DNA of 64,000 nucleotides from a virus. Its lineage: Duplodnaviria; Caudoviricetes. The position numbers and the translations under genes were made by a program. Where the stretch lies: positions 1 to 64,000 of IMG/VR virus record IMGVR_UViG_3300028887_000099; one strand, given 5' to 3'. This document shows positions 6,183 through 21,038 of this stretch, piece by piece; the stretch's first letter is position 1, and every line of letters starts with the position of its first letter. Under the pieces are notes generated by a model. That model searched no databases. It was not told the DNA's origin and worked only from the letters and a program-made list of their open reading frames with translations.

Positions 6183-6260
6183 GGTGCGGTAGCCCAATTC
6201 GGAAGAGGCAATTGACTTAAAATCAATCAAGTATGGGTTCGAGTCCCATTCGCACTACCA
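6183..6260 (+). tRNA. tRNA-Leu(TAA), short variable loop
   Basis: Cloverleaf, loop CTTAAAA, CCA. Confidence 0.9.
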
Positions 6261-6267
6261 TTTTTTT

Positions 6268-6342
6268 GTGGGTGTAATACAATGGTAAGTATGCAAGCTT
6301 GCCAAGCTTGATATGAGGGTTCGATTCCCTTCACTCACTCCA
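6268..6342 (+). tRNA. tRNA-Gly(GCC)
   Basis: Cloverleaf, loop TTGCCAA, CCA. Confidence 0.95.
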
Positions 6343-9520: not shown

Positions 9521-9591
9521 TAGACCCAAACAGCAACATATAAATCTAAAATTGTTATTTATTTATTTCTTGATTTGGAAATTAGGGTCTA
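9521..9591 (+). ncRNA. ACAGCAA-box RNA, dispersed copy
   Basis: TAGACCC-AAACAGCAA...GGGTCTA; same box and closing stem as the 18814-19208 array. Confidence 0.6.
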
Positions 9592-9660
9592 GAAATTTGA
9601 AACTTTCTAAAATTTATGTTATAATAATATTAGAAAGTTGAGGGAGACCTTTTTGAACTT

Positions 9661-10272
9661 TGAAAATATAAATAACTTATACCTCGGTGAAAATCTGGAT
9701 GCGATGTCTAGTCCGAGGCGCACCGAAAGTGCTCGGGTCTAACGAAACAAGGATACTTGTGGATAGACGACCGCATTTTTAACGTGAGTGAAAAAATGAA
9801 TTCCTGTTGGAAGAAAGTAAAGGTGTGGCGCAAAAGTTATCGCAAATAAAAGCAGCCGTGGACAGGCGAGAGCAATAGACAGCAAGCGTTAAAAGCGTAG
9901 CCGAATCCAAGTTAGGAGTTAGCGAGTGGTGTCGGACTTAAACCTTGGAAATACCACTAATCTCGTGTGCGGTGAAGCAGAGAAATCTGTGTATAACTGT
10001 CTACAGCGTCCGAGTAGCGGAAATCGCAGTGACTTACTGAACATATAGATATTCTTGAAGATTAAGGTCTTTGATTAACATCTTTTCTGAATATCCCGTG
10101 AAAGGTAGAGGTAATCATTCCTCTGATGGACTTGGTCAAGGGAGGTAACTCCCGACTGGGGTAAGAAGTGTATTGGGGACGCCTGGTATGCTCAGACTTA
10201 TCTCCCATGTGGCTGAATATGTTTGAAGATAACGGATGTAAGGCGAAGGCTTATATTTTATTTATATTTTCA
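9661..10272 (+). ncRNA. Large ~610 nt ncRNA, probably ROOL-like
   Basis: Own promoter 9597-9625; perfect 15-bp terminal helix 9661-75/10258-72; size and tRNA-array setting match ROOL; family assignment is from recall only. Confidence 0.65.
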
Positions 10273-10541: not shown

Positions 10542-10616
10542 TCCGGAGTAGCGCAAAGGAAGAGCGGCTGACTCTAAATCAGCAGGTTGAGATATCGTAA
10601 TTCTCCTCCGGTGCCA
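10542..10616 (+). tRNA. Amber suppressor tRNA (CTA), probably Gln
   Basis: Stem GCTGA/TCAGC, loop CTCTAAA (anticodon 10574-76), G73, T1:T72 mismatch, CCA. Confidence 0.92.
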
Positions 10617-11271: not shown

Positions 11272-11347
11272 ACGTCGCTGGTGTAATGGAAAACATCACA
11301 GTCTTCTAAACTGTAAGATGCGCGTTCAAATCGCGCGCGGCGTACCA
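11272..11347 (+). tRNA. tRNA-Arg(TCT)
   Basis: Cloverleaf, loop CTTCTAA, CCA. Confidence 0.92.
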
Positions 11348-11355
11348 ATTTAATT

Positions 11356-11430
11356 GCGCCTATCGTTCAATGGAAAGGACATAAGTCTCCTAAACTTAAA
11401 ATGTAGATTCAAATTCTACTAGGCGCCCCA
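11356..11430 (+). tRNA. tRNA-Arg(CCT)
   Basis: Cloverleaf, loop CTCCTAA, CCA. Confidence 0.92.
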
Positions 11431-15793: not shown

Positions 15794-15868
15794 GGGTTGC
15801 TAGTATAATGGTAGTATACCAGACTCTTAATCTGTGAGGTTGGGGTTCAAGTCCCCAGCGACCCACCA
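15794..15868 (+). tRNA. tRNA-Lys(CTT)
   Basis: Cloverleaf, loop CTCTTAA, CCA. Confidence 0.93.
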
Positions 15869-15876
15869 CTTTATAT

Positions 15877-15951
15877 GGGACGTTGGCATAATTGGTAATG
15901 CATCTGACGCTTAATCAGTATGATGGGAGGTTCGAATCCTTTCACGCCCCA
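15877..15951 (+). pseudogene. Degenerate tRNA (CTT loop with G33)
   Basis: D and T arms intact; loop CGCTTAA; acceptor stem shortened/mispaired. Confidence 0.6.
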
Positions 15952-18077: not shown

Positions 18078-18153
18078 ACGGATTTAGCTCAACTGGAAGA
18101 GCACGGCCCTTACAAGGCTGAGGTTATGGGTTCAAGTCCCCTAGTCCGTACCA
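18078..18153 (+). tRNA. tRNA-Val(TAC)
   Basis: Loop CTTACAA, CCA. Confidence 0.95.
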
Positions 18154-18157
18154 TCTA

Positions 18158-18213
18158 AAGACCCATACAGCAATTTACTAAAATATATTGGGTATATATA
18201 TTTAACGGGTCTT
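18158..18213 (+). ncRNA. ACAGCAA-box RNA, short copy
   Basis: AAGACCC-ATACAGCAA...GGGTCTT. Confidence 0.6.
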
Positions 18214-18221
18214 GTTATTAT

Positions 18222-18308
18222 GCACGAGTGCTGTAATAGGAAACCAGGCATGGTTGAGGTCCATGTGTCTAATAAGACGTAGGGGTTCAAGTCCCCTCTC
18301 GTGTACCA
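18222..18308 (+). tRNA. tRNA-Leu(GAG)
   Basis: Loop TTGAGGT, long variable arm, CCA. Confidence 0.9.
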
Positions 18309-18314
18309 CTAAAA

Positions 18315-18809
18315 TTGAAAGAAGTGAGATCAGTGATAAGTCCAACACATGGAGAAATAACTCTCCATAAAACAGCAATTCTAATTAAAAATTTTATAGA
18401 AGGTGACCCCGATGGTCAGTATGCAATTTATATCGGTTCTGATAGCCAAAACACATACTACACCAAAATGGTTACAGTAGTTGCAGTCCATAAGGTCGGG
18501 CATGGCGGTCAATACTTCTATGAAATTTCTAAGTATGACAAAATTAAAGATATTCGTACAAAACTTTATACAGAAACTCAACTTAGTCTTGAAATGACCG
18601 ATAGACTTTTTGAGGAATTTCATAAACTGGATTTTAATTATGATGCAGATAATATTGCGTTCTGTATTCATATTGATGCTGGCAACGGCGGTCCAAGTGG
18701 TCAAGTAATTCCTGAAGTAGTTGGTTATGTTCATGCTATGGGTTATGAATGCGAAGTAAAACCTTCATCACCAATAGCTAGTTGTATTGCTGACCGAATT
18801 AGTAAATAA
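18315..18809 (+). CDS. RNase H-like fold protein (YkuK/DUF458 family)
   Basis: IGSDSQ, VVAVHKVGHGG.YFY, TETQLSL, IHIDAG, KP.S.IAS.IADR. Confidence 0.75.
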   Translation: MKEVRSVISPTHGEITLHKTAILIKNFIEGDPDGQYAIYIGSDSQNTYYTKMVTVVAVHKVGHGGQYFYEISKYDKIKDIRTKLYTETQLSLEMTDRLFEEFHKLDFNYDADNIAFCIHIDAGNGGPSGQVIPEVVGYVHAMGYECEVKPSSPIASCIADRISK

Positions 18810-18813
18810 AATA

Positions 18814-19208
18814 AAGGCACATACAGCAAAGTTTCTTAGGATGTTAAAATATTTGAAAATTTTAAAAGTCTTAATCCAAATCGTGCCTTGAATTATTAAA
18901 AAGACGCACACAGCTAAATTTTATTATAGCATAATGGTAATGCACCTGACTTATAATCTGGATATACGGTTCGAATCCGTTTATTGCGTCTTGAAATTAA
19001 AAAGAAAGACAGTTACAGCAAACTTTTTGAATAATGTTACTGCAGATAACTTGTAATCTTATTTAACCCATAAGCTGTCTTGAATAAAGGTTTAGACCCA
19101 TACAGCAAATTACAATGAAAATTGTGTTATTGGTTCAAATCCAATTATGTAAGCCATTTAATTTTACATATCGCCCAATGGGTAGGGCAAATTTTTTTCA
19201 CGGGTCTA
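18814..19208 (+). ncRNA. Tandem array of four ACAGCAA-box, Y-RNA-like tRNA mimics
   Basis: Units 18814-92, 18901-95, 19006-84, 19093-208; each has a 7-8 bp closing stem with compensatory changes plus (A)(T/C)ACAGC(A/T)A; interiors carry tRNA arms. Confidence 0.8.
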
Positions 19209-19261
19209 GTTCTTTATCTCGTTAGAGATAAATCATTTTGGAGAAAAAGGAGAAAACAACA

Positions 19262-20794
19262 ATGAGATATGTAAACGCTCTCGAAAACGAGTTTAACTAT
19301 AAGCGCACCGAAAATGGTGGCTTGGCGCATAAGTCTACTTGCGATGCGCTCTATGATATGTTTGCCCTTGGTGGCGCATATCGTAGTCGTAGCGATGAGG
19401 ACTGTGTCTTCCTTTTTATGAAGGCATTTAAGGAAAATCCTACTTATGCTATGAAGTGCCTCTTCTATCTGCGTGATATTTTGCAGGGACAGGGAGAGCG
19501 CCGCTTCTTCCGCGTCTGCATTAAGTGGGCAGCGGATAATTATTCCCTTGAGATGGATCGCAATCTCAAGCACATCCCTGAGTTTGGTCGTTGGGATGAC
19601 CTCTATGCCTTTGTTGGCACCAAGTTGGAAGCCTCTATGTGGGCTTTTATGTACGAGCAGTTTCGTTTGGATATGGGTTCTCGTACTCCTTCTCTACTCG
19701 GAAAGTGGCTCAAGTCTGAGAATACTTCCAGTGCAGAGTCTCGCGCCCTTGGCGCAAAGACTCGTAGAGCCTTTGGCATGACTCCCATGACCTATCGTAA
19801 GACTCTTTCCAGCCTTCGTAAGCGCATCAATGTTCTTGAGCGTCTTATGAGTGAGCGTCGTTGGGACGAGATTGAGTTCGATAAGATCCCCTCTAAGGCT
19901 GGTCTTGTCTATAAGAACGCTTTCGCACGCCATGATGTGGAGCGTATGAAGGCTAAGGCCATTCAGTCTTATGCCGACTTTGCGAAGGATAAGAACGCTA
20001 AGGTTAACATCAAGGCTCTTTATCCTTATGAGGTTGTGGAGAAGGCTATTAAGGTTCTTTGTGGTGGTAGTTACTACTACTCTTGGAGAACTGTGAATGT
20101 AGCCTTGGGCGATACTGATCGTCTTATGGTCAACAAATATTGGGAAAATCTGGCAGACTATATGTCTAAGCTGAATATGAACGCCCTTTGTGTTGTTGAC
20201 ACCAGCGGCTCTATGCATGGTACTCCTATCAACATTGCAATCTCTCTCGGTATGATTGCGGCTGATAAGGCACGTGGGCCATTTCATGGTCGTTATATCA
20301 GCTTCAGCTCTCGTCCTCAGCTTATCAAAGTAGAGGGTGTGGACTTCGTTGATAAGGTAAAGCGTATCTATGATACCAACCTTTGCGAAAATACTAACCT
20401 CGAGGCAACCTTTGATATGCTTTTGGATGTAGCTTGCCGAAATCACATGAAGCAGAAGGATCTGCCAAAGTCTATTATCGTCATTAGCGATATGGAAATT
20501 GACAATGCTTACGGGATGTATAGCTGGGACAGCAACAGCGAAAAAGCTCGTGCAAAGAACCGCACCATGATGGAGAATATGAGACTCAAGTGGAAGCGTT
20601 ATGGTTATGATCTTCCTAAGATGGTATATTGGAACGTGAGTGCACGTCATGATACCTTCCTGGACGATGGCCCTGACGTAACCTACGTAAGTGGTGCCAG
20701 CGCGATTCTCTTTGAGCAAGTCGCAAAGGGTATCACTGCGCAGGATCTCATGTTTGAGAAACTGGATAGCGAGCGTTATGCTTGCATCAGATAA
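19262..20794 (+). CDS. DUF2828-type Ro60/TROVE-like protein with C-terminal vWA domain
   Basis: RTENGG, LFYLRDI..GQGER, FGRWDDL, GKWL, vWA MIDAS VVDTSGSM, IIVISDMEID, YWNV; RBS AAGGAG; 510 aa, no TAG. Confidence 0.8.
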   Translation: MRYVNALENEFNYKRTENGGLAHKSTCDALYDMFALGGAYRSRSDEDCVFLFMKAFKENPTYAMKCLFYLRDILQGQGERRFFRVCIKWAADNYSLEMDRNLKHIPEFGRWDDLYAFVGTKLEASMWAFMYEQFRLDMGSRTPSLLGKWLKSENTSSAESRALGAKTRRAFGMTPMTYRKTLSSLRKRINVLERLMSERRWDEIEFDKIPSKAGLVYKNAFARHDVERMKAKAIQSYADFAKDKNAKVNIKALYPYEVVEKAIKVLCGGSYYYSWRTVNVALGDTDRLMVNKYWENLADYMSKLNMNALCVVDTSGSMHGTPINIAISLGMIAADKARGPFHGRYISFSSRPQLIKVEGVDFVDKVKRIYDTNLCENTNLEATFDMLLDVACRNHMKQKDLPKSIIVISDMEIDNAYGMYSWDSNSEKARAKNRTMMENMRLKWKRYGYDLPKMVYWNVSARHDTFLDDGPDVTYVSGASAILFEQVAKGITAQDLMFEKLDSERYACIR

Positions 20795-20820
20795 GGGAAG
20801 AGAAATCTTCCCTTTGATAT

Positions 20821-20907
20821 GCCGCGTTAGTCTAATGGTAAGGCCCTGGCCTTGAAAGCCATGAGGGATGAAAGTCCATGAGCGTTCAAGTCGTTCACGC
20901 GGCGCCA
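20821..20907 (+). tRNA. tRNA-Ser(TGA)
   Basis: Loop CTTGAAA, long variable arm, CCA. Confidence 0.93.
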
Positions 20908-20909
20908 TA

Positions 20910-21038
20910 AGTAGCAAGGGTTAAGCGAATATGGAAACGGCAAATCCACTAGCCAAGAGCTAGGAGCTAAAATCCGAGATACCCGTTGAGCAATCGCAGG
21001 CTCAGTCGTGTAGGCATCACGAATTAAAAAACTGCCTA
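20910..21038 (+). ncRNA. Candidate structured RNA ending in an H-type pseudoknot
   Basis: TCGTG/CACGA plus TAGGCA/TGCCTA with an A-rich loop. Confidence 0.4.

What the first reader, a model, noticed from the sequence alone, without database searches (positions are those of the whole stretch)
19093..19208. Circularly permuted tRNA inside the fourth unit (YrlA-like topology)
Seen, in 5'-to-3' order: anticodon-stem-like strand TGAAAATT; variable GTGTT; T arm ATTGG-TTCAAAT-CCAAT (19129-45); acceptor stem TATGTAA/TTACATA closed by a loop (19146-70); 2-nt linker; D arm GCCC-AATGGGTA-GGGC (19173-88); then AATTTTTTTCA pairing back. The order T, closed acceptor, D is a circular permutation of tRNA in which the RNA ends exit through the anticodon stem into the box stem. 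Known: this is the architecture described for YrlA-class bacterial Y RNAs. It is the strongest independent support that the array is Y-like.
Basis: partly seen in the sequence, partly recalled or inferred. Interest (0 to 1): 0.82.

Follow-up and report, generated by a model that had tools for sequence, protein, structure and literature searches.

The report
Rearranged tRNA look-alike on phage Y-like RNA
A rumen/gut phage encodes a 116-base RNA that is a tRNA with its parts in rotated order, held by a short conserved "handle" and placed just before a gene for a Ro60-shaped protein. It looks like an undescribed cousin of the bacterial YrlA/Ro60 particles rather than YrlA itself.

Summary
Window 19093-19208 (+) folds into a 7-bp closing stem, an ACAGCAA box, a T arm, a 7-bp acceptor hairpin, a 2-nt linker and a D arm. 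A tail can pair back in the tRNA 27-31/39-43 register.

In 53 distinct relatives, 96% of cells pair and 22 of 23 pairs show changes on both sides. tRNA tertiary nucleotides are kept: U8, A14 and GG in 53/53, and the Levitt 15:48 pair in 42/53.

The next gene (DUF2828+DUF7788) is predicted to fold like Ro60 (Z 10.3-13.4 over about 380 residues).

So the YrlA-like topology and the Y-like reading are supported. It is not a YrlA member: Rfam YrlA gives 26.8 bits against a cut-off of 69, and CAGCAA replaces the CGAA box.

Three refinements:
- The "closed" acceptor loop reads GCCA plus an AU-rich spacer, the same form as this phage's own tRNA-tRNA junctions, so RNase P may open it.
- A local hairpin competes with the anticodon-stem pairing.
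- Distant relatives keep a 7-nt anticodon loop on a split stem.

This scan has already noted the same handle family on other DNA (at least 75 genomes). I found no paper or Rfam family describing it.

The parts
19093..19099 (+). closing ('handle') stem, 5' strand TAGACCC
   Evidence: Pairs with 19202-19208. All 7 pairs show changes on both sides across 53 relatives, 97.3% paired.
19100..19109 (+). handle box ATACAGCAAA (ACAGCAA at 19102-19108)
   Evidence: CAGCAA is invariant in 52/52 relatives that have a box, and the preceding A is present in 48/52. AYACAGCWAA occurs 5 times in the window against 0.94 expected.
19112..19125 (+). local hairpin ACAAT-GAAA-ATTGT, in the position of a shortened anticodon arm; competes with the next feature
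   Evidence: Part of the minimum-energy fold. Close relatives keep a hairpin here with different sequences.
19119..19123 (+). AAATT, tRNA positions 39-43 (3' strand of the anticodon stem)
   Evidence: Pairs with 19190-19194. Register supported in 53 relatives.
19124..19128 (+). variable loop GTGTT (G46, U48)
   Evidence: G46 in 40/53. Position 48 covaries with position 15 (A:U 28, G:C 14).
19129..19145 (+). T arm ATTGG-TTCAAAT-CCAAT
   Evidence: 99.6% paired, 4 of 5 pairs change on both sides. The loop is TTCRANY in nearly all relatives.
19146..19170 (+). acceptor hairpin: TATGTAA (positions 66-72), loop GCCA+TTTAATT (19153-19163), TTACATA (positions 1-7)
   Evidence: All 7 pairs change on both sides. 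NCCA starts the loop in 12/53 relatives. The loop has the same form as this phage's tandem-tRNA junctions.
19171..19172 (+). linker TC (U8, C9)
   Evidence: U8 in 53/53.
19173..19188 (+). D arm GCCC-AATGGGTA-GGGC
   Evidence: 96.7% paired, all 4 pairs change on both sides. A14 in 53/53 and GG in 53/53.
19189..19201 (+). A26, then AATTT (positions 27-31), then linker TTTTCAC
   Evidence: Position 26 is a purine in 52/53. Pairing of the tail with positions 39-43.
19202..19209 (+). closing stem 3' strand GGGTCTA plus trailing G
   Evidence: The base after the stem is G in 42/52 relatives.
19213..19232 (+). hairpin TTTATCTC-GTTA-GAGATAAA just before the ribosome-binding site of the next gene
   Evidence: A hairpin at this place with different sequences is seen in most related loci. 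Not analysed further.
19262..20794 (+). gene for a 510-aa DUF2828+DUF7788 protein, predicted Ro60-like ring plus vWA domain; putative partner
   Evidence: Pfam hits. AlphaFold2 model with pLDDT 74. Ro60 structures fill Foldseek ranks 1-13 and VIA-align ranks 1-10.
18158..18213 (+). other handle unit (plain hairpin cargo)
18814..18889 (+). other handle unit, first of the four-unit array
18902..18991 (+). other handle unit carrying a normal-order tRNA body without an acceptor stem (D, anticodon and T arms)
19007..19080 (+). other handle unit (hairpin cargo)
9521..9591 (+). distant copy of the handle with the same stem, TAGACCC/GGGTCTA

Best explanation
The unit is a non-coding, Y-RNA-like partner RNA made of two modules.

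Module 1 is a constant 'handle': a 7-bp closing stem of free sequence, a single-stranded A-Y-ACAGCAA box right after its 5' strand, and a G after its 3' strand. I infer that it docks the Ro60-shaped DUF2828/vWA protein encoded 54 nt downstream, as the CGAA-bearing stem of Y RNAs docks Ro60.

Module 2 is a circularly permuted tRNA body in the order variable loop, T arm, acceptor, D arm. It can form the L-shaped tRNA core and so presents a tRNA elbow to enzymes that recognise tRNA.

The acceptor hairpin is capped by G73-CCA plus a 7-nt AU-rich spacer, a preserved tRNA-tRNA junction. RNase P and 3' trimming probably open it, leaving a two-piece, CCA-ended tRNA mimic held together by the acceptor stem and the handle.

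A likely role is to tether or gate the Ro-like ring in tRNA or RNA quality control or repair during infection.

Shown here: the structure, its conservation, its strand-specific linkage to the gene, and the predicted fold of the protein. Inferred: binding, cleavage and biological role.
For: - Structure and covariation.
- tRNA tertiary nucleotides, including Levitt-pair covariation.
- Anticodon-stem register.
- Handle conservation.
- Linkage to the gene: in 76 distinct DUF2828 loci there are 80 handle units on the gene strand against 7 on the opposite strand.
- Reverse test: of 118 loci fetched by an RNA-only pattern, 31 hold a DUF2828 homologue, always on the same strand in the cases I inspected.
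- The pairing recurs in cultured phages. Mycobacterium phage Douge has three handle units in the 376-nt gap after its 'Ro-like RNA binding protein' gene, the middle one a permuted tRNA (R1 47.9 bits). E. coli phage wV8 has a unit scoring 44 bits.
- Protein fold: Ro60 structures fill the top ranks, Z 10.3-13.4 over 372-398 residues spanning both ring and vWA, well above vWA-only hits at Z 8.7 or less.
- The YrlA model aligns end to end at 26.8 bits, matching mainly the T, acceptor and D parts.
- The acceptor loop GCCA-TTTAATT has the same form as the window's own tRNA junctions, for example ACCA-ATTTAATT.
- Precedents: M. smegmatis YrlA, which has a 7-bp acceptor stem, is cut by RNase P and receives CCA (PMC4201824). 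Thermus phage phiLo Ro60 binds phage Y-like RNAs and host PNPase (PMC12135203).
Against: - No binding, expression or processing data exist for this RNA or this protein.
- The protein matches no TROVE Pfam model and no PDB sequence. The Ro60 likeness rests on a model of moderate confidence (pLDDT 74, TM about 0.5).
- The handle lacks the CGAA motif, so the mode of docking may differ.
- The 2D energy model prefers a local hairpin to the anticodon-stem closure in this unit.
- Only 12 of 53 relatives carry NCCA in the loop, so cleavage cannot be general.
- Many DUF2828 loci show no handle unit within 3 kb (32 of 76).
Confidence: 0.62

Rival explanations
1. It is a permuted pre-tRNA or split-tRNA gene. 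The handle would be a processing or ligation signal, analogous to the bulge-helix-bulge junction of the permuted tRNA genes of Cyanidioschyzon. The product would be a working tRNA, circularised and reopened or in two pieces, rather than a protein-docking RNA.
For: The gene encodes G73-CCA plus a spacer and a 7-bp acceptor stem. In 19 distant relatives the anticodon arm keeps a 7-nt loop, with U33 in 16/19 and a purine at 37 in 19/19, on a stem split between the 5' strand and the 3' tail. The unit sits inside a tRNA array.
Against: This unit has a GAAA tetraloop where the anticodon should be. The same handle also closes plain hairpins and tRNA bodies without acceptor stems, which cannot become tRNAs. 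The handle tracks the Ro60-like gene, not ligase genes. No bacterial or phage enzyme for such splicing is known (own knowledge; also stated in 10.1101/312249).
Confidence: 0.1
2. It is a free decoy or sponge. The tRNA-shaped body would soak up a host tRNA-targeting nuclease or a tRNA-modifying enzyme on its own. The handle would only stabilise the ends, and the neighbouring protein would be unrelated to it.
For: tRNA core nucleotides are conserved. Relatives display real anticodon loops, including GUU, UUU, UCU and UGU. Phage tRNA arrays are thought to counter tRNA-cleaving defences (PMC7824862).
Against: An invariant single-stranded CAGCAA and a trailing G are not needed for end stability. 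The strand-specific linkage to DUF2828 genes holds across very different phages.
Confidence: 0.12
3. It is a cis-acting leader of the DUF2828 mRNA, for autoregulation or mRNA stabilisation, rather than a separate RNA.
For: It lies 54 nt before the start codon with no terminator between. In L019-L022 a promoter-like site, the RNA, a hairpin and the ribosome-binding site follow each other.
Against: In many loci the units lie downstream of the gene or 1-3 kb away among tRNAs. Four different units are stacked here, and one copy lies 9.5 kb away.
Confidence: 0.08
4. It is a decaying remnant of two tandem tRNA genes with no function of its own.
For: The covariance model also scores real tandem-tRNA junctions in the window at 30-32 bits. 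The loop looks like a tRNA junction.
Against: Compensatory changes occur in every helix across 53 relatives. The unit is enclosed by the conserved handle. It has no close similarity to any of the phage's own tRNAs. It scores 102.5 bits against about 32 for true junctions.
Confidence: 0.03

Closest known systems
YrlA, the tRNA-like Y RNA bound by bacterial and mycobacteriophage Ro60/Rsr (Rfam RF02553; Chen et al. 2014, PMC4201824; structure in bioRxiv 10.1101/312249)
   Same: Circularly permuted tRNA in the order variable region, T arm, loop-closed acceptor, UA-type linker, D arm. The ends leave through the anticodon stem into a protein-binding stem. tRNA tertiary nucleotides are conserved, including Levitt-pair covariation. 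It is encoded beside, and on the strand of, a Ro60-shaped ring plus vWA protein. The signs of origin from a tRNA dimer fit the published model.
   Different: Scores 26.8 bits against a gathering score of 69. The box is A-Y-ACAGCAA after a simple 7-bp stem, with a trailing G, instead of GNCGAAN0-1G within a bulged helix. The partner belongs to Pfam DUF2828+DUF7788, not TROVE. The acceptor stem is a full 7 bp with an encoded NCCA and spacer. Relatives keep anticodon loops, which YrlA lacks. The same handle carries several other cargo types in tandem arrays.
Yrl1/Yrl2 with Ro60 of Thermus phage phiLo (PMC12135203; PDB 9KOP, 9L5Y)
   Same: A phage-encoded Ro60-type ring with partner RNAs encoded just upstream on the same strand. 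9KOP is the best structural match to the window protein (Z 13.4).
   Different: The phiLo RNAs are stem-bulge-stem with CGAA and have no tRNA-like body. Binding and the PNPase complex were shown by experiment there; nothing has been shown here.
Permuted tRNA genes of Cyanidioschyzon merolae and some archaea (as cited in 10.1101/312249)
   Same: The 3' half lies before the 5' half. The acceptor is closed by an intervening stretch that RNase P and RNase Z open.
   Different: Those mature into decoding tRNAs through a bulge-helix-bulge splice and a circular intermediate. This unit has no anticodon loop and no such motif.
Class I RNAs of dictyostelid amoebae (Rfam RF01414; PMC7919456)
   Same: A short covarying stem joins the ends, an unpaired ..UUACAGCAA box follows its 5' strand, the interior is variable, and the 3' end reads C-U-G-U.
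   Different: The only match is weak: 20 bits against a cut-off of 41.5, for the neighbouring unit at 18159-18214. There is none for this unit. Class I RNAs carry no tRNA-like cargo. Their known binder is an RRM protein.

Membership tests
YrlA (Rfam RF02553) | Score at or above the curated gathering score of 69 bits | tested here: not met
   Window unit 26.8 bits. Relatives 34.8, 34.3 and 32.4 bits.
YrlA (Rfam RF02553) | tRNA-like domain in the order T arm, loop-closed acceptor stem, D arm, with tRNA tertiary nucleotides | tested here: met
   U8, A14 and GG in 53/53; R15:Y48 in 42/53 with both A:U and G:C forms.
YrlA (Rfam RF02553) | GNCGAAN0-1G (CGAA) motif near the 5' end, the presumed Ro60 contact | tested here: not met
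   The box is ATACAGCAAA. CAGCAA is invariant in 52/52 relatives and there is no CGAA. In relative L017 the YrlA model aligns ACAGCAAAU to acggCgaAU, 7 of 9 identical, so remote kinship of the boxes is possible; in the window unit it aligns a different register with fewer matches.
YrlA (Rfam RF02553) | Encoded within about 4 kb of, and on the same strand as, a Ro60 (TROVE+vWA) gene | tested here: inconclusive
   The unit lies 54 nt upstream on the same strand. The protein hits DUF2828+DUF7788, not TROVE, yet its model matches Ro60 structures best.
YrlA (Rfam RF02553) | Bound by Ro60; carries pseudouridine 55 and dihydrouridine | not testable with these tools
   Needs immunoprecipitation and modification mapping.
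ACAGCAA-handle RNAs beside DUF2828 genes (no published name; noted repeatedly by this scan) | 7-bp covarying closing stem, CAGCAA box right after its 5' strand, trailing G, on the strand of a nearby DUF2828 gene | tested here: met
tRNA (RF00005) | Cloverleaf in standard order with an open acceptor end and a 7-nt anticodon loop | tested here: not met
   No ARAGORN call. 12.8-17.7 bits against a cut-off of 29. The loop is GAAA.
Permuted pre-tRNA genes (Cyanidioschyzon type) | Matures to a decoding tRNA; has an anticodon loop and a bulge-helix-bulge junction | tested here: not met
   There is no 7-nt anticodon loop in this unit. The junction is a plain 7-bp stem plus box. Maturation itself cannot be tested here.
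Dictyostelid Class I RNA (RF01414) | Score at or above 41.5 bits; about 60 nt; stem plus 11-nt CCUUACAGCAA | tested here: not met
   No match for this unit at E up to 10. The neighbouring unit scores 20 bits. No matches at E up to 1 in 9 related loci.
Ro60/TROVE proteins (for the neighbouring gene) | HEAT-repeat ring followed by a vWA domain with a MIDAS motif | tested here: met
   Predicted only. Ro60 chains align over model residues 10/28 to about 492/510, Z 10.3-13.4. DTSGS is invariant at residues 313-317. Sequence-level TROVE membership is not met.

The most novel reading that the evidence does not exclude
The unit is a preserved tRNA-dimer junction that the cell's own tRNA-processing enzymes convert into a split, CCA-ended tRNA body. 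That body stays clamped by the ACAGCAA handle to a Ro60-like ring. The duplicated 27-31 strand, one copy before and one after the body, lets the RNA switch between a hairpin form and a cloverleaf form. The phage would use this tethered tRNA mimic to sense, decoy or repair damage from host tRNA-targeting defences. By extension, the handle and DUF2828 pairing would be a second, widespread Ro/Y-type particle, whose handle may be the one seen in Dictyostelium Class I RNAs.
Probability: 0.18. Interest if true: 0.82.

Novelty: new variant of a known kind. Interest (0 to 1): 0.62.

Why it matters
Ro60/Y-RNA particles are known from animals, about 5% of bacteria and a few phages, and what the tRNA-like YrlA domain does is still open.

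This unit belongs to a second, apparently undescribed lineage with its own handle and its own Ro60-shaped partner. Homologues of the partner occur in 704 cultured phage records, including Felix O1-like coliphages, Listeria, Staphylococcus, Campylobacter and Vibrio phages, and mycobacteriophages. I confirmed a permuted handle unit beside the gene in two of them, wV8 and Douge. That makes the question testable in easy laboratory systems.

The unit also preserves visible traces of an origin from two tandem tRNAs: an NCCA plus spacer in the acceptor loop, and a duplicated 27-31 strand. This is direct sequence support for the dimeric-tRNA origin model proposed for YrlA.

Tried and rejected
- Rfam at gathering thresholds finds nothing here except tRNAs and ROOL.
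- blastn of 18100-21000 against cultured phages gave no match.
- A profile search of PDB sequences with the protein alignment gave only chance-level hits.
- The term 'DUF2828' occurs in five papers, none on phages or RNA (four on plants, one on a tardigrade genome). 'Permuted tRNA' plus 'phage' returned nothing relevant.
- The large protein search returned more than 7000 unnamed metagenomic relatives and no names. The Atlas added only 'DUF2828, mostly viruses'. So I could not test whether Dictyostelium has a DUF2828 protein, or whether DDB_G0281243 is one.
- The upstream RNase H-like (YkuK, PF04308) gene is not a conserved neighbour: 4 of 80 loci, and none of 118.
- Promoter-like and terminator-like sites around the array are no more frequent than in shuffles, so transcript ends are unknown.
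- No phage tRNA in the window is a close source of the unit.
- I considered reading the hairpin before the T arm as a YrlA-type variable arm with a separate anticodon stem. I rejected this because the closest relatives have no complementary strand for such a stem.
- My first regex scan also returned chance hits inside coding regions. I did not use those.

Full report
**Context.** The window is the first 64 kb of an 85.9-kb IMG/VR phage record, estimated 71% complete. It carries 37 tRNA genes, all on the + strand, and a ROOL RNA. The finding lies at the end of four tandem non-coding units (18814-19208). These sit between an RNase H-like gene (18315-18809, PF04308) and a 510-aa gene (19262-20794) that hits Pfam DUF2828 and DUF7788.

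**The observation.** The unit is 116 nt. It reads:
- closing stem TAGACCC/GGGTCTA
- box ATACAGCAAA
- a short hairpin region
- variable GTGTT
- T arm
- a 7-bp hairpin in the acceptor position
- TC
- D arm
- A
- AATTT, then a U-rich linker

RNAfold returns the closing stem and the T, acceptor and D hairpins as the minimum-energy structure (z -2.67). Read in tRNA numbering, the unit can form U8-A14, A15-U48, G18/G19 with U55/C56, U54-A58, G53-C61, C13-G22-G46 and A26-G44. This is direct reading.

**Relatives and covariation.** A protein-based scan of viral contigs returned 80 loci. The four closest carry the orthologous unit with compensatory changes in every helix. An RNA-only pattern (box, gap, T loop) fetched 118 more stretches.

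A covariance model built from 10 units, without any anticodon-stem pairs, found one full match in the window (102.5 bits; real tandem-tRNA junctions score about 32). It found 55 matches in 100 sources and 30 more in a further 100.

On the 55-match alignment, 96.1% of cells pair and 22 of 23 pairs change on both sides. 0 of 500 shuffles reach this, and slid registers give 36-47%. G-U pairs are frequent, which fixes the + strand as the RNA strand.

Tertiary positions are kept: U8 53/53, A14 53/53, GG in the D loop 53/53, G46 40/53, purine 26 52/53. The Levitt pair covaries (A:U 28, G:C 14).

**Anticodon stem.** Scored in the fixed tRNA register, the tail after A26 pairs with the strand before the variable loop at 27:43 (41/53), 28:42 (44/53) and 29:41 (33/53). 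0 of 2000 shuffles reach these values, and several pair types occur. Two things were missed.
- In the window and its closest relatives, a copy of the 27-31 strand also lies upstream and forms a local hairpin with the same 39-43 strand. Both pairings covary across at least five different sequences. The 2D energy model favours the hairpin here. I cannot say which form exists in vivo.
- In 19 distant relatives, the hairpin is a true anticodon arm with a 7-nt loop (U33 16/19, purine 37 19/19). Its stem is split: 2-3 bp come from the 5' strand and the complementary 2-3 bp from the 3' tail. In those relatives the permutation break lies inside the 5' strand of the anticodon stem.

**Acceptor loop.** The cap of the acceptor hairpin reads G-CCA followed by TTTAATT. 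NCCA opens the loop in 12 of 53 relatives, all of them among the longer loops (8-14 nt); about 1 would be expected by chance. The window's own tandem tRNA genes all end in NCCA followed by an AU-rich spacer of 1-13 nt, for example ACCA-ATTTAATT.

The loop is therefore a tRNA-tRNA junction. Together with the duplicated 27-31 strand, this fits the published idea that YrlA-type RNAs arose from dimeric tRNA transcripts (10.1101/312249).

M. smegmatis YrlA has a 7-bp acceptor stem, is cut by RNase P and receives CCA (PMC4201824). I therefore infer that this unit is opened too. That step is inference only.

**The partner protein.** The AlphaFold2 model (pLDDT 74, pTM 0.67) matches Ro60 structures first. 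These are Thermus phage phiLo Ro60, Xenopus and human Ro60, and Deinococcus Rsr.
- Foldseek: E 4e-8 to 1e-3, ranks 1-13.
- VIA-align: Z 10.3-13.4 over 372-398 residues covering both ring and vWA. vWA-only hits follow at Z 8.7 or less.

The MIDAS motif DTSGS is invariant. There is no TROVE Pfam hit and no PDB sequence hit.

Homologues occur in 704 cultured phage records. Mycobacteriophage copies are annotated 'Ro-like RNA binding protein'.

**Linkage.**
- In 76 distinct DUF2828 loci there are 80 handle units on the gene strand and 7 on the other strand.
- Of 118 loci found by RNA pattern alone, 31 hold a DUF2828 homologue, on the same strand in all the cases I inspected.
- Mycobacterium phage Douge has three handle units in the 376-nt gap after the gene; the middle one is a permuted tRNA.
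- E. coli phage wV8 has one in its tRNA cluster, under a CDS annotated on the opposite strand.

**Comparison with YrlA.** Rfam holds YrlA (RF02553). It aligns to the unit end to end at 26.8 bits, against a gathering score of 69, matching mainly the T, acceptor and D parts. The two outer helices of the model are largely unpaired in the unit. Relatives reach 32-35 bits.

The defining GNCGAA box is absent. CAGCAA is invariant instead. So the unit works like YrlA in architecture and gene context but is not a member of that family.

The handle resembles dictyostelid Class I RNAs (PMC7919456), but only weakly by score.

**Mechanism.** The best-supported reading has three steps.
1. The handle docks the Ro60-like ring.
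2. The permuted tRNA body offers a tRNA elbow to tRNA-recognising factors.
3. The acceptor junction may be opened by RNase P.

A role in RNA quality control or repair during infection is plausible. The evidence is the tRNA-array setting, the Salmonella rsr-yrlBA-rtcBA precedent (PMC7790460) and the phiLo Ro60-PNPase complex (PMC12135203), but it is unproven.

**Earlier notes of this scan.** These describe the same handle family in at least 75 other genomes, with the same reading, and also raise the Class I lead. They are unchecked AI notes. I reached the points above from my own calls and used one note only as a lead to Felix O1-like phages.

**Verdict.** This is a real, conserved, permuted tRNA-like RNA. 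It is a new variant of a known kind.

Noticed in passing
window 9659-10271 (+): Full-length ROOL RNA (333.7 bits, E 3.7e-76) inside the tRNA array.
   Followed up: no
window 19213-19232 (+); same place in L001-L040: A hairpin 10-30 nt before the ribosome-binding site of the DUF2828 gene recurs in most related loci with different stem sequences (for example CCTCTTGTCCAAGAGG). It could be an autoregulatory or mRNA-end element. Rfam 'freshwater-2' gives only 17 bits here.
   Followed up: partly
window 18159-18214 (+): A handle unit gives the only Rfam hint other than tRNA and YrlA: Dictyostelium Class I RNA at 20 bits (cut-off 41.5), sharing stem plus UACAGCAAU and a C-U-x-G-U 3' end. One of four proteins pulled down with a Class I RNA, DDB_G0281243, has no known function (bioRxiv 10.1101/2020.04.05.026054).
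   Followed up: partly
window 10542-10616 (+): tRNA with anticodon CTA (ARAGORN labels it Pyl), that is, an amber suppressor.
   Followed up: no
L207 5365-5490 (+), E. coli phage wV8 (EU877232.1): A permuted tRNA handle unit (R1 44 bits) lies under the annotated hypothetical CDS 48 on the opposite strand. That CDS is probably a mis-annotation.
   Followed up: partly
L206 3950-4215 (+), Mycobacterium phage Douge: Three handle units with stems GGACGCA, GGACCCC and GGACACG fill the unannotated gap after the 'Ro-like RNA binding protein' gene, followed by a terminator-like hairpin.
   Followed up: partly
L016 784-909; L081 5121-5247: A variant permutation: after the D arm comes a complete anticodon arm (loop CUGUUAA in L016), and a separate hairpin precedes the T arm. 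Here the break lies in the variable region rather than in the anticodon stem.
   Followed up: no
L066 1647-1904; L070 1397-1742; L071 839-918: tmRNA genes, some matching the permuted tmRNA model, sit in the same tRNA/handle-RNA clusters of related phages.
   Followed up: no
L188 1923-3146 and 5422-7140 (-): A divergent DUF2828-like protein (Pfam E 7e-4) next to two permuted units, with a Band_7/SPFH gene nearby.
   Followed up: no
window 11284-11398, 15815-15922, 6203-6309 (+): True tandem-tRNA junctions score 23-32 bits with the permuted-unit model. This is the expected false-positive class, also warned of in PMC4201824.
   Followed up: yes
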